Source: Acidobacteriota bacterium (lineage in GTDB: Bacteria; Acidobacteriota; Thermoanaerobaculia; Gp7-AA8). From it: a stretch of DNA of 43,385 nucleotides. The translations under genes and the position numbers were made by a program. The notes beneath the pieces were generated by a model. The model was not told the DNA's origin. It worked only from the letters and a program-made list of their open reading frames with translations, and did not search any database. Location: positions 1 to 43,385 of the forward strand of contig QHVS01000110.1 of NCBI GenBank assembly GCA_003223635.1, given 5' to 3'. Positions 6,682-9,625 of this stretch are shown here, piece after piece. Each line of letters opens with the position of its first letter. Position 1 is the stretch's first letter.

Positions 6682-8049
6682 ATGAATCTGAGCAAGAACG
6701 AGCTCCTTGCGTTCGCCCGAGGCGAACGGGAGCGCTTCGAGCGCACGCTGCGGCAATTCGTCGAGGTTCCGACAGTCTCCTCAGAGCCGGAGCGGCAGCC
6801 GGACATCCGCCGCTGCGCCGATCTGGCCGCACAGACCATTCGCGAATTCGGAGGCGAGGCGCGGATCCTGGAGACCGCGGGAAATCCGATCATTCACGGC
6901 CGCTTTGATCAGAACAGCGGCGGTCCAACCGTCACCATCTACAACCATCTCGATGTGCAGCCCGCCTCGCGAGAGACGGAACCTTGGGATTCCGATCCGT
7001 TCACCTTCACCAGGAACGGCGACCGCTATTACGGCCGCGGGACGACCGACGACAAGGGCCCGGCGCTCACTGCGCTGTGGGGCGTGCGCGCAGCGCGCGA
7101 GGCCGGCGTTCCGATCAACATCAGCGTGCTGTGGGAGCTCGAAGAAGAGATCGGCTCGCCGAATTTCGAAGCGGCGATGAAAGAGAACGCCAACCAGCTC
7201 GCCACCGACTCGGTGATCGTTTCCGACACCATCTGGGTGGCCCGCGATCGACCGGCCTGTCCGGCCGGATTGCGCGGGCTGTTTGGATTCGAGCTGATCC
7301 TCGAGACAGGGGAGACCGATCAGCACTCCGGCGTGACCGGCGGCGCAGCGCGGAATCCCATCGGCGAGCTGATGAAGCTCGTCTCAGAGATGTATGACGC
7401 ATCGACAGGAAAAGTGAAGATCAAAGGGTTCTACGATGACGTCGAGAAGCCATCGAAGGCGGAGTTGAAGGAGTTCGCCGCGTCCGGTTTCTCCGTCAAG
7501 AAATTCAAGAAGGATCATCTTTTCAAGTCGATTCGCACCGAAGATCCGATGGAGGTGATGAAACGGATCTGGGCCACGCCGACCATGGAAGTGCACGGCC
7601 TGGTCGGCGGCTATACCGGTCCGGGGATCAAGACGATCATTCCGCCGCGCGCGGCGGTGAAAATCTCCTGCCGCGTCGTTCCGAATCAGGATCCGAAGAA
7701 GATCGGAAAGCTCATTCGCGACTTCGTGAAGAAGCACAACCCCGACGTAAAGATGGTGGAAGAATCGTCGATGATGCCGTACAAGGCGCCCACCACCGGC
7801 CCGCTCGCCGATGCCGTGCGCAGCGCGATGAAGTTTGCCTTCGGACGTGAGCCTGTGTTCGTGCGCGAAGGCGGCTCGATCGGCGCCGTGATCTCCATGG
7901 AGCGTTACCTCCGCTGCCCTGTCATGTTCCTCGGCCTCTCCCTGCCCGAGCACGGGTACCACGCGCCGAATGAGAACTACGACTGGCAACAGGCCAGCGG
8001 CGGGATGGCCGCCTTCGCGAAGTACTTCGAGGAAGTGGCCGCGCTGTAG
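6682..8049 (+). CDS. M20A family metallodipeptidase (CNDP/Dug1/PepV-like)
   Basis: 455 aa. Carries HLDVQPA, YGRGTTDDKGPAL and WELEEEIGSPN, which are typical M20 metal-ligand regions. Confidence 0.8.
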   Translation: MNLSKNELLAFARGERERFERTLRQFVEVPTVSSEPERQPDIRRCADLAAQTIREFGGEARILETAGNPIIHGRFDQNSGGPTVTIYNHLDVQPASRETEPWDSDPFTFTRNGDRYYGRGTTDDKGPALTALWGVRAAREAGVPINISVLWELEEEIGSPNFEAAMKENANQLATDSVIVSDTIWVARDRPACPAGLRGLFGFELILETGETDQHSGVTGGAARNPIGELMKLVSEMYDASTGKVKIKGFYDDVEKPSKAELKEFAASGFSVKKFKKDHLFKSIRTEDPMEVMKRIWATPTMEVHGLVGGYTGPGIKTIIPPRAAVKISCRVVPNQDPKKIGKLIRDFVKKHNPDVKMVEESSMMPYKAPTTGPLADAVRSAMKFAFGREPVFVREGGSIGAVISMERYLRCPVMFLGLSLPEHGYHAPNENYDWQQASGGMAAFAKYFEEVAAL

Positions 8050-8090
8050 ATTCCCCCTCGCACCTATCCTGAGGTCTCCCTGTCGAGATG

Positions 8091-8124
8091 GTGGAAATTT
8101 GTGGACAGAAGTGGCGATAAGTGG
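8091..8124 (+). promoter_or_regulatory. candidate MraZ operator: four GTGG boxes at exact 10-bp phasing
   Basis: Four consecutive decamers each start with GTGG: GTGGAAATTT GTGGACAGAA GTGGCGATAA GTGGTAAAAA (8091, 8101, 8111, 8121). They sit 40-60 nt upstream of mraZ in an AT-enriched patch. MraZ is known to bind 10-bp-phased direct repeats in its own promoter. Confidence 0.5.
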
Positions 8125-8164
8125 TAAAAACACACATTGAATCGGTTAAAAACGGGCCTTCTTA

Positions 8165-8628
8165 ATGGAACTCAGTGTCTTGATGGGGCATGCCCCCGCT
8201 CGCGTCGACGACAAGGGACGCTTGAAGGTCCCGGCGGATTTCCGCAAGTTCATTGAAGAACGATACGGCTCCGACTGCTTCATGACTGCTTCATTATCTC
8301 CATGGACGGAGAACGCGCGCTGATCTATCCGATGCCGGTCTGGAACGATTTCCAGGGAGGGCTGGCGAAAGTCCCATCAACGTCGATGGCCAAATCCAAG
8401 CTGCTGGAGCGGGCGAATTACTACGGACAGGCGGCGACGATCGACGGGCAAGGACGGCTGCTGATCCCCACTGTGCTCCGCGAAATCGCCGGGATCGCAG
8501 AAGACGTGGTGGTCCTGGGCAACACCGATCACCTGATCGTGTGGAACGAGGAGCGGATCCAGAAGCGACTGGCGAAGAGTCCGTTGAGCGCGGAGGACAT
8601 GAAGGAGTTGGAGCTGCACGGAGTGTAG
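8165..8628 (+). pseudogene. mraZ: mraZ (dcw transcriptional regulator) interrupted by a +11 frameshift
   Basis: The N-terminal half (ATG 8165 or 8183) reads ...GHAPARVDDKGRLKVPADFRKFIEERYGSDCF and stops at TGA 8321. The C-terminal half is ORF 8302..8628 (MDGERALIYPMPVWNDF...GRLLIPTVLRE...) in another frame. Removing one copy of the 11-bp duplication restores a single 145-150 aa MraZ. Confidence 0.8.
8273..8294 (+). repeat. perfect 11-bp tandem duplication GACTGCTTCAT x2
   Basis: Read directly: 8273-8283 is identical to 8284-8294. Confidence 0.95.
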
Positions 8629-8702
8629 TTGCTGAGTTGCTTGGTTGCTAGGTTGCTGGACGGGTGGGACTGAGCAACCCAACAACCAAGTAACCCAGCG
8701 AC
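8628..8702 (+). repeat. intercistronic octamer-built hairpin (mraZ|rsmH)
   Basis: Left arm is GTTGCTGA GTTGCTTG GTTGCTAG GTTGCTGG (8628-8659). Right arm is GAGCAACC CAACAACC AAGTAACC CAGCGACC (8672-8703). Hand pairing of 8628-8657 with 8673-8702 gives 25 WC pairs, 2 GU pairs and 3 mismatches. Confidence 0.85.
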
Positions 8703-8704
8703 CG

Positions 8705-9625
8705 ATGATCCACGATCCAGTTCTTTTACAACCGGTTGTCGATTACCTCCGCCCCAATCGCGAAGACGGAACGCTCGTCGATGCGACGGTAGGGTTGGGT
8801 GGGCACGCGGAGGCGCTGTTGGAGCGCTATCCGCGGGCCCATCTGGTGGCCATCGATCGCGATCCGCGCGCGCTGAAGCTCGCGCGAGAGCGGCTGGGGA
8901 GGTTCGGAAGTCGCGTGACGTTCGCGCAGGGACGTCACGAGTCGCTCATTGACATTCTGAAGCAGTCAAACCTCGAGACCATCAGCGGCCTCGTGGCCGA
9001 CCTCGGCGTCTCCTCGATGCAGCTCGACGACGCGTCGCGCGGATTTTCCTTCCGCCTCGACGCGCCGCTCGACATGCGGATGGGGCCTGACAGCACGACG
9101 GCGGCAACGCTGGTCAACGGCCTCGAGGAACACGAGCTGGCGCGGATCCTCCGCGAATACGGCGAGGAGCCGATGGCCCGGCGCATCGCACGAGCGATCG
9201 TCGAGGCGCGGCAGAGCGCTCCGATCGAGACGACCGGACAGCTCGCGGCGATCGTGCGCGGTGTAAAGAAGTCAAAGCCCCGCGACATTGATCCCGCCAC
9301 GCTGACCTTTCAGGCGCTTCGCATCGCGGCGAATGAGGAGCTGGTCGGACTGGACCGCTTCATCGACGACGCGGTGAGCGTCCTCGAAAGCGGCGCACGA
9401 ATCGCGGTGATCTCGTTCCACTCGCTCGAGGATCGAATCGTCAAACGCGCGCTGCGGCGGCTGAAAGGCGAATGCACCTGTCCGCCCGGCATGCCGGTCT
9501 GCGGATGCGGGGCGAAGGATCTGGTGAGTGTGTTGACAGGACGTCCGGTGACTGCTTCGGAAGACGAGGTGAATCGAAATCCGCGATCGCGCAGCGCCAA
9601 GCTGCGCGTCGCAGAAAAGAAGTAA
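8705..9625 (+). CDS. rsmH: 16S rRNA (cytosine1402-N4)-methyltransferase
   Basis: MIHDPVLLQPVVDYL start at ATG 8705. DATVGLGGHAEALL SAM motif, DLGVSSMQLD, FHSLEDRIVK. The 20 codons upstream in ORF 8645 translate the repeat element. Confidence 0.9.
   Translation: MIHDPVLLQPVVDYLRPNREDGTLVDATVGLGGHAEALLERYPRAHLVAIDRDPRALKLARERLGRFGSRVTFAQGRHESLIDILKQSNLETISGLVADLGVSSMQLDDASRGFSFRLDAPLDMRMGPDSTTAATLVNGLEEHELARILREYGEEPMARRIARAIVEARQSAPIETTGQLAAIVRGVKKSKPRDIDPATLTFQALRIAANEELVGLDRFIDDAVSVLESGARIAVISFHSLEDRIVKRALRRLKGECTCPPGMPVCGCGAKDLVSVLTGRPVTASEDEVNRNPRSRSAKLRVAEKK

What the first reader, a model, noticed from the sequence alone, without database searches (positions are those of the whole stretch)
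8273..8294. Perfect 11-bp tandem duplication frameshifts mraZ while its operator stays intact
GACTGCTTCAT occurs twice in tandem. The upstream frame reads ...DDKGRLKVPADFRKFIEERYGSDCF and then hits TGA at 8321. The second MraZ half (MDGERALIYPMPVWNDF... to 8628) is in a different frame. Deleting one copy gives the continuous sequence YGSDCFIISMDGERALIYP and a normal-length two-domain MraZ. An 11-nt duplication is not a typical homopolymer sequencing artefact. It therefore looks like a real loss-of-function (or split) allele of the dcw regulator, or a population variant fixed by the assembler. If real, the dcw operon would be de-repressed in this organism.
Basis: seen in the sequence. Interest (0 to 1): 0.6.

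Follow-up and report, generated by a model that had tools for sequence, protein, structure and literature searches.

The report
Probable assembly duplication splitting mraZ
An exact back-to-back copy of 11 bases splits the cell-division regulator gene mraZ in this draft soil-bacterium genome, but every independent assembly of the same population has one copy, so it is most likely a local assembly error and at best a one-strain knockout of a non-essential gene.

Summary
GACTGCTTCAT occurs twice in tandem at 8273-8294 and splits mraZ into 52-aa and 108-aa ORFs. With one copy, the gene encodes a normal 150-aa two-domain MraZ. Four GTGG operator boxes at 8091-8124 are intact.

The duplication is found only in this fragmented, gapped MAG (395 contigs, 87 N-runs). 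Nineteen independent contigs of the same or sister populations (up to 99.9% identical) and all 40 related genomes have one copy.

Three signs point to one local patch rather than gene decay:
- The first copy ends on the last base before the first strain-variable site of the gene.
- Three of the window's five private substitutions in 9.8 kb lie 3-65 nt after the duplication. Two change residues invariant in 120 homologues.
- Three other MAG-only perfect duplications (11, 19, 28 bp) damage conserved genes. In both cases with a close comparator, the duplication also sits at the edge of a strain-divergent block.

I read it as a local assembly error (about 0.6). A real strain-specific loss-of-function allele remains possible (about 0.33). 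The scan has met the same kind of MAG-only duplication in other genomes. Interest is low.

The parts
8091..8124 (+). MraZ operator-like array: four GTGG boxes at 8091, 8101, 8111 and 8121 with a 10-bp period
   Evidence: Positions. It is the only four-box array of this kind in the genome. The same GTGG-N6 array lies upstream of mraZ in 18 family relatives. It matches the published GTG(T/G)/GTGG MraZ boxes (PMC12957436; bioRxiv 10.1101/2022.02.09.479790).
8165..8323 (+). ORF1: MraZ residues 1-40 (first DXXXR motif, DDKGR) plus 12 out-of-frame residues and TGA
   Evidence: PF02381 scores 19.9 bits, below the cut-off. The exact 52-aa product is in no public collection.
8273..8283 (+). Copy 1 of GACTGCTTCAT. 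It ends on the last base before the first strain-variable site of mraZ.
8284..8294 (+). Copy 2 of GACTGCTTCAT, the extra 11 bases relative to every comparator
   Evidence: Absent from 19 near-identical contigs and from 40 related genomes.
8297..8359 (+). Patch of three substitutions private to this contig: 8297 C>T (Thr41Ile), 8313 G>A (synonymous), 8359 A>G (Arg62Gly)
   Evidence: Private against 18-19 comparators. Thr41 and Arg62 are invariant in 120/120 homologues. One cluster member has Ser41. P(3 or more in this stretch) is 4e-7 to 4e-5.
8302..8628 (+). ORF2: MraZ residues 43-150 (rest of domain 1 and domain 2 with the second DXXXR motif, DGQGR)
   Evidence: 46.6 bits. No Shine-Dalgarno-like sequence precedes ATG 8302. 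The 108-aa product is on record only from the MAG's own 43385-bp contig.
8705..9625 (+). rsmH (mraW), the next gene of the dcw cluster, intact
   Evidence: The exact 306-aa product is also encoded on an independent contig next to an intact 150-aa mraZ.

Best explanation
The extra 11 bases are most likely a local assembly error, and the organism's mraZ is single-copy and in frame.

Proposed mechanism: several strains that differ in the middle of mraZ coexist in these soil samples. The sequence they share ends at ...GACTGCTTCAT, and the next base is the first site where they differ. An assembly graph branches at such a point. The shared piece and a strain-specific piece were then joined by scaffolding, gap filling or automated error repair. 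Eleven overlapping bases were not trimmed, and this produced a perfect tandem copy. The strain-specific or patched piece also brought in three bases that no other assembly has.

Shown here: the duplication is unique to this MAG, it sits at the variable-site boundary, the private substitutions are clustered, and other MAG-only duplications of the same kind exist. Inferred: which software step made the join, and that no read spans the 8283|8284 junction.
For: 1. The genome is a fragmented, gapped draft: 395 contigs, 87 N-runs of 1-250 N, contigs down to 213 bp, and contig ends that overlap by 30-313 bp.

2. All 19 independent contigs of the same or sister populations have one copy. They come from MEGAHIT-style k141 contigs, gapped scaffolds, JGI and Logan. 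L034 is 99.91% identical over 5.8 kb upstream, and L031/L037 is 99.46% identical over 7 kb. All 40 related genomes have an intact mraZ.

3. The 108-aa fragment is known only from the MAG's own contig. The 52-aa fragment is not on record anywhere.

4. The base right after copy 2 is the first of 16 polymorphic sites in the 453-bp gene among close comparators. The chance of that adjacency is 3.5%.

5. Only five substitutions are private to the window in 9773 bp. Three of them lie 3-65 nt after the duplication. P is 7e-7 at the background rate and 4e-5 at the neutral rate. Even neutral drift over the whole gene gives P = 0.007. So the duplication and the substitutions arrived together as one patch.

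6. The same signature recurs elsewhere in the MAG.
- C133:9626 is an 11-bp duplication that splits a Na+/H+ antiporter. Its 527-aa relative, 99% identical in protein, is intact. The base after copy 2 is variable, and there are 8 differences in the next 150 bp.
- C72:2800 is a 19-bp duplication that destroys a C-terminus conserved in the 12 best-matching homologues printed (all about 300 aa). A variable site lies 2 nt before copy 1, with 8 differences in the 180 bp upstream.
- C195:13354 is a 28-bp duplication inside PEPCK_ATP, 245 bp from a contig end.
- The joint chance of the adjacency is 4e-4 by the strict definition (two loci) and 1.4e-3 by the loose definition (three loci).

7. Local assembly errors and duplicate sequence at scaffold joins are described for short-read MAGs, especially IDBA-UD assemblies (Chen et al. 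2020, PMC7111523).
Against: The junction is therefore untested.

A pure de Bruijn assembler cannot invent the CAT|GAC junction. The error needs a scaffolding, gap-filling or patching step that I cannot identify.

The 87 N-runs are not flanked by duplicated sequence, so the documented 'Ns between overlapping ends' error is not visibly at work here.

Two of the three private substitutions change residues invariant in 120 homologues. This is what a dead gene would accumulate. Under the artefact reading it has to be blamed on erroneous or very rare reads.

Short perfect tandem duplications are also a natural feature of this lineage. The 11-bp repeat at C145:12968 is present in at least 9 independent contigs. 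Another 11-bp repeat lies inside a 101-bp overlap shared by two contigs.
Confidence: 0.62

Rival explanations
1. Real strain-specific loss-of-function allele. A cell lineage acquired the 11-bp duplication together with three nearby transitions, in one error-prone repair or replication event or in quick succession. The assembler reported that allele faithfully.

The two DXXXR halves of the DNA-binding cradle would then lie on separate polypeptides (52 aa and, if translated at all, 108 aa). MraZ could no longer bind the intact GTGG boxes, and its autoregulated control of the mra promoter would be lost.
For: Thr41Ile and Arg62Gly hit residues invariant in 120/120 homologues. By contrast, 12 of 13 private substitutions in flanking genes are synonymous.

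De Bruijn contigs normally contain only junctions seen in reads.

Real short tandem duplications exist in this lineage (C145), as do tandem arrays at gene junctions (earlier notes). The genome has two Ku genes, so end-joining repair is available.

Both DXXXR motifs are needed for MraZ function (bioRxiv 10.1101/2022.02.09.479790). Lys13, Arg15 and Arg86 form one cradle (PMC12957436). From my own knowledge, mraZ deletions are viable in E. coli and B. subtilis.
Against: The allele appears in none of 19 independent contigs, several from the same soil study series. Neither ORF product is on record outside the MAG.

Drift cannot give three private substitutions in 63 bp, so a rare complex event must be assumed. 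No template for such an event was found.

The exact coincidence with the first strain-variable site goes unexplained, as does the same signature at two other broken genes.

Four conserved genes hit by perfect, undiverged duplications is a lot for one 3.7-Mb free-living genome.
Confidence: 0.33
2. Functional split or recoded MraZ. Either the two ORFs are both made and reassemble, or a programmed ribosomal frameshift restores a full-length protein with a short insertion.
For: Each ORF retains one DXXXR motif, and the operator is intact.
Against: There is no slippery heptamer between 8255 and 8325, and no Shine-Dalgarno-like sequence before ATG 8302. The split falls inside domain 1, not between the domains. 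No relative has a split gene. No RNA element lies at the site.
Confidence: 0.02

Closest known systems
Local assembly and scaffolding errors in short-read metagenome-assembled genomes (Chen, Anantharaman, Shaiber, Eren and Banfield 2020, Genome Res, PMC7111523)
   Same: It is an exact duplicate sequence inside a gapped draft MAG. It is absent from independent assemblies of the same population. It sits where strain variation fragments the assembly, and other such lesions occur in the same genome.
   Different: The paper describes Ns inserted between overlapping ends, unsupported consensus, and long concatenated repeats. Here there are no Ns at the site, and the N-runs of this MAG are not flanked by duplicates. 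The defining test, absence of perfectly matching reads, could not be run.
Spontaneous short tandem-duplication frameshifts that create bacterial pseudogenes
   Same: It is a perfect head-to-tail copy whose length is not a multiple of three. It lies inside a non-essential gene and is missing from close relatives.
   Different: There is no flanking microhomology. It is tied to a cluster of private substitutions and to a strain-variable boundary. It is not seen in any other assembly.
MraZ transcriptional regulators of the dcw/mra operon (E. coli, B. subtilis, Mycoplasma genitalium) and their null or R15A/R86A mutants
   Same: [quoted passage not shown] It has two PF02381 halves, each with a DXXXR motif. 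Repeated GTGG boxes with a 10-bp period lie upstream.
   Different: There are four boxes rather than the usual three (four are reported for some Mycoplasma, PMC12957436). As deposited, the gene is split inside domain 1.

Membership tests
MraZ (Pfam PF02381, UPF0040) | Two tandem MraZ/AbrB-like halves that match PF02381 above the gathering score | tested here: met
   The one-copy reading scores 70.3 bits in two stretches. ORF2 alone scores 46.6 bits. ORF1 alone scores 19.9 bits, below the 23-bit cut-off.
MraZ (Pfam PF02381, UPF0040) | A DXXXR motif in each half (R15 and R86 in B. subtilis and M. genitalium numbering) | tested here: met
   DDKGR at residues 15-19 and DGQGR at 89-93 of the 150-aa reading. 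The requirement for both motifs is from bioRxiv 10.1101/2022.02.09.479790 and PMC12957436.
MraZ (Pfam PF02381, UPF0040) | First gene of the dcw cluster, followed by rsmH, ftsL and ftsI, with repeated GTGG boxes upstream | tested here: met
   Gene order. Boxes at 8091/8101/8111/8121 are conserved in 18 relatives.
Local assembly error of a short-read MAG | No read matches the region perfectly, so the junction is unsupported | not testable with these tools
Local assembly error of a short-read MAG | The lesion is absent from independent assemblies of the same population | tested here: met
   19 of 19 contigs are single-copy, up to 99.91% identical in the flanks. The ORF products are on record only from the MAG.
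Local assembly error of a short-read MAG | The lesion lies at a point where the assembly graph would branch (strain variation or repeat), and similar lesions occur elsewhere in the same assembly | tested here: met
   Copy 1 ends before the first polymorphic site. C133, C72 and C195 carry MAG-only perfect duplications in conserved genes, and both testable cases lie at the edge of a divergent block.
Genuine pseudogene (relaxed selection) | Excess of damaging substitutions spread over the gene at about the neutral rate | tested here: inconclusive
   Two private missense changes fall at invariant residues. However, all three private changes lie within 63 bp next to the duplication, and there are too many for neutral drift (P = 0.007 for the whole gene, 4e-5 for the patch).
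Programmed ribosomal frameshift | A slippery heptamer in the zero frame ahead of the stop | tested here: not met
   None between 8255 and 8325.
Transposon excision footprint (a target-site duplication left behind) | A cut-and-paste element with an 11-bp target duplication in the genome, and a shared target pattern | tested here: not met
   No PF01609 transposase was found in the MAG, though the MAG is incomplete. The six 11-mers share no pattern. One of them is an old, fixed repeat.

The most novel reading that the evidence does not exclude
The duplication and the three transitions are one genuine error-prone repair event that knocked out mraZ in a wild Thermoanaerobaculia strain. The lineage would be unusually prone to short tandem duplications: tandem arrays at gene junctions, fixed 11-bp repeats, and two Ku genes. 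That would give a natural mraZ null with an intact four-box operator, in which dcw regulation without MraZ could be studied in soil populations.
Probability: 0.25. Interest if true: 0.3.

Novelty: not a real feature. Interest (0 to 1): 0.1.

Why it matters
Taken at face value, the deposited genome says this organism lacks a working MraZ, and NCBI already carries the 108-aa fragment as a protein. That is probably wrong. The same MAG probably also misreports a Na+/H+ antiporter, a PEP carboxykinase and an ABC-2 permease.

One practical point is reusable for screening MAG 'pseudogenes' when reads are not at hand. A perfect non-triplet tandem duplication is suspect when it sits exactly at the edge of a strain-divergent block and is missing from independent assemblies.

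If the allele were real, it would be an ordinary strain-level loss of a non-essential regulator.

Tried and rejected
I did not use read laying, because it needs run ids from that tool.
- Exact look-ups of the two split ORFs found nothing outside the MAG.
- A pattern scan of genome contigs for either allele found nothing. The metagenome scan found one single-copy contig.
- I tested whether N-runs in the MAG are flanked by duplicated ends, the error type in Chen et al. They are not.
- I considered a fixed 11-bp software offset, because 11-bp perfect repeats are enriched: 7 places at 6 distinct loci against 0.9 expected. This was weakened when C145's 11-bp repeat proved real and old. The other damaging duplications are 19 and 28 bp.
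- I considered transposon excision footprints. There is no IS4-type transposase and no shared target pattern.
- I looked for a template-switch or gene-conversion donor for the 8284-8359 patch. Only chance 12-14-mers turned up, with no local direct or inverted repeats.
- I tested for a haplotype switch exactly at the duplication in mraZ. It is not demonstrable, because L043 matches the window on both sides apart from the private sites.
- Programmed frameshift and split-gene function were rejected.
- The close comparators for PEPCK (L032, L033) are too divergent at the site for a strain-level test.
- Rfam found nothing at the site.

Full report
**1. The observation**

The window reads ...GGCTCC GACTGCTTCAT GACTGCTTCAT TATCTCCATGG..., with the two 11-mers at 8273-8283 and 8284-8294. 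The 11-mer occurs nowhere else in the window. The match does not extend by a single base on either side, so there is no microhomology.

ORF listing gives a 52-aa ORF at 8165-8323, ending ...GSDCFMTASLSPWTENAR* at TGA 8321. A 108-aa ORF runs from 8302 to 8628. With one copy, the reading is a continuous 150-aa protein. It matches Pfam MraZ (PF02381) at 70 bits in two stretches. The 52-aa piece alone falls below the family cut-off.

**2. The gene and its setting**

The protein has the two DXXXR motifs of MraZ: DDKGR at 15-19 and DGQGR at 89-93. It is followed by rsmH, ftsL, ftsI and murE.

Four GTGG boxes lie upstream at 8091, 8101, 8111 and 8121, with an exact 10-bp period. This is the only four-box array of that kind in the genome. 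The same array precedes mraZ in 18 relatives of the family. It matches the published MraZ boxes: GTGG[A/T]G repeats in B. subtilis (bioRxiv 10.1101/2022.02.09.479790) and GTG(T/G) boxes contacted by Lys13, Arg15 and Arg86 in M. genitalium (PMC12957436). So "operator intact" is right.

No slippery heptamer lies ahead of the stop, and no Shine-Dalgarno-like sequence precedes ATG 8302. Rfam finds nothing at the site. If the sequence is true, the gene is dead. The break falls inside domain 1 and puts the two halves of the DNA-binding cradle on separate products.

**3. Where the sequence comes from**

The window is contig C210 of a metagenome-assembled genome of 3.73 Mb in 395 contigs, 93% complete. 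It has 87 N-runs of 1-250 N and contigs as short as 213 bp. Contig ends overlap one another by 30-313 bp. Earlier notes of this scan place it in the Thermoanaerobaculia. It is a gapped draft in which pieces have been joined after contig assembly.

**4. Relatives and independent assemblies**

All 40 related genomes searched have an uninterrupted mraZ, collinear through ...CFITS....

Nineteen public contigs of the same or sister populations were recovered. The routes were exact look-ups of neighbouring proteins, near-identical MraZ proteins, and a DNA pattern scan. They come from different samples and assemblers: MEGAHIT-style k141 contigs, gapped scaffolds, JGI and Logan. All are single-copy.
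- L034 is 99.91% identical to the window over 5.8 kb upstream and 99.5% downstream.
- L031/L037 is 99.46% identical over 7 kb.

The 108-aa fragment is on record only from the MAG's own 43385-bp contig. The 52-aa fragment is in no collection. P0128 is identical to the one-copy reading except for Thr41 and Arg62, and is encoded on 12 contigs.

**5. The duplication is part of a patch**

Over the 9773 positions covered by at least three comparators, the window has only five private substitutions. Three of them are at 8297, 8313 and 8359, which is 3-65 nt after the duplication.
- At the background rate, the chance of three in that stretch is about 7e-7.
- At the neutral rate estimated from synonymous sites, it is 4e-5.
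- Even for the whole gene evolving neutrally, it is 0.007.

Two of the three change residues invariant in 120 of 120 homologues: Thr41Ile and Arg62Gly. One cluster member has Ser41. In the flanking genes, 12 of 13 private substitutions are synonymous.

Ordinary pseudogene drift does not explain this. The duplication and the three changes arrived together. I found no donor or template for them in the genome or nearby.

**6. The duplication sits on a strain boundary**

From 8091 to the end of the 11-mer, all eight close (≥98% identical) comparators are identical to the window. The very next base is the first of 16 polymorphic sites in the 453-bp gene. The following 240 bp are a strain-variation hot spot: 3.3% divergence from L034, against about 0.1% in the flanks. 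Independent contigs also tend to end, or carry N-runs, around this locus.

That is where an assembly graph branches. A shared piece ending ...GACTGCTTCAT, joined to a strain-specific piece that still carried 11 overlapping bases, would give exactly the observed structure.

**7. The same thing elsewhere in the MAG**

A genome-wide scan found other perfect tandem duplications whose length is not a multiple of three.
- C133:9626 (11 bp) splits a Na+/H+ antiporter. A 527-aa relative, 99% identical in protein, is intact. In the 97.6%-identical contig L044 the base after copy 2 differs, and 8 of the next 150 bases differ. All four amino-acid differences lie downstream of the duplication.
- C72:2800 (19 bp) replaces the C-terminus ...AAVRLRRYREPI of an ABC-2-type permease, which is conserved in the 12 best-matching homologues printed (all about 300 aa). 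In L057 a variable site lies 2 nt before copy 1, and 8 differences lie in the 180 bp upstream.
- C195:13354 (28 bp) interrupts a PEPCK_ATP domain 245 bp from a contig end.

The joint chance that variable sites abut these duplications is 4e-4 by the strict definition (two loci) and 1.4e-3 by the loose one (three loci). The nhaP and C72 cases served as tests of a prediction made from mraZ. nhaP met it exactly. C72 met it only in mirrored form.

The MAG also has two long perfect in-frame duplications, of 375 bp and 297 bp.

**8. What argues the other way**

- A plain de Bruijn assembler cannot invent the CAT|GAC junction, so a joining or patching step must be assumed. I cannot name it.
- The MAG's N-runs are not flanked by duplicated ends.
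- Short tandem duplication is also real biology in this lineage. The 11-bp repeat at the 3' end of a SWIB gene (C145:12968) is present in at least nine independent contigs at 92-99.8% identity. Another 11-bp repeat lies inside a 101-bp overlap shared by two contigs.
- The genome has two Ku genes.
- The two missense changes at invariant residues are what a dead gene would show.

A genuine allele made by one error-prone event therefore cannot be excluded.

**9. Verdict**

I weigh four points most heavily: uniqueness to one draft assembly, the exact placement at a strain branch point, the single-patch statistics, and recurrence at other conserved genes of the same MAG. On these I put about 0.62 on a local assembly error of the kind described by Chen et al. 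2020 (PMC7111523). I put about 0.33 on a real strain-specific loss-of-function allele, and about 0.02 on a functional split or recoded gene.

In either case nothing new in kind is present. Earlier follow-ups of this scan met the same class of MAG-only perfect duplications in other genomes, with mixed but mostly artefact verdicts. I used these as leads only.

If the allele is real, de-repression of the mra promoter is a reasonable inference from E. coli and B. subtilis. It is untested here.

Noticed in passing
window 8091-8283 versus 8295-8530: The mraZ promoter region and first 119 coding bases are identical in all close comparators and nearly so in contigs that are only 92-96% identical elsewhere. 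The next 240 bp of the same gene are a strain-variation hot spot (about 3% against 0.1% in the flanks) made almost entirely of synonymous changes in mosaic haplotypes. The DNA-level constraint on the 5' block is unexplained.
   Followed up: partly
window 8049-8090: The gap between the M20 peptidase gene and the mraZ operator is rich in indels and differs completely between strains that are more than 99.5% identical on both sides. Independent scaffolds carry N-runs exactly here.
   Followed up: partly
G000 C145:12968-12989: A perfect 11-bp tandem repeat, AACACCTGAGC x2, forms the last codons and stop of a SWIB-domain gene (...KHLSNT*), just ahead of a terminator-like hairpin. It is conserved in at least 9 independent contigs at 92-99.8% identity. 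It is a real, old duplication that reset the C-terminus.
   Followed up: yes
G000 C133:9626-9647; C72:2800-2837; C195:13354-13409: Three more perfect tandem duplications not divisible by three (11, 19 and 28 bp) damage a Na+/H+ antiporter, an ABC-2-type permease and a PEP carboxykinase. All are single-copy in the nearest public contigs. They are probably the same kind of assembly lesion as in mraZ.
   Followed up: partly
G000 C141:8961 (375 bp x2) and C370:18413 (297 bp x2): Two long perfect tandem duplications, both multiples of three. I did not test whether they are real or artificial concatenations.
   Followed up: no
G000 contig ends, e.g. C42 end / C222 start (101 bp), C86/C293 (313 bp): Fifteen pairs of contig ends overlap perfectly by 30-313 bp, so the MAG could be joined further. 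The variable overlap lengths do not fit one fixed k-mer size.
   Followed up: no
G000 C251:2232-2774 and C105:599-1135: Two Ku-domain genes (PF02735, 180 and 169 bits), which suggests a non-homologous end-joining system.
   Followed up: no
window 8625-8705, minus strand: The repeat-built hairpin between mraZ and rsmH gives a sub-threshold chance hit to an animal microRNA model (mir-196, 22 bits against 55 needed). It only reflects hairpin shape.
   Followed up: no
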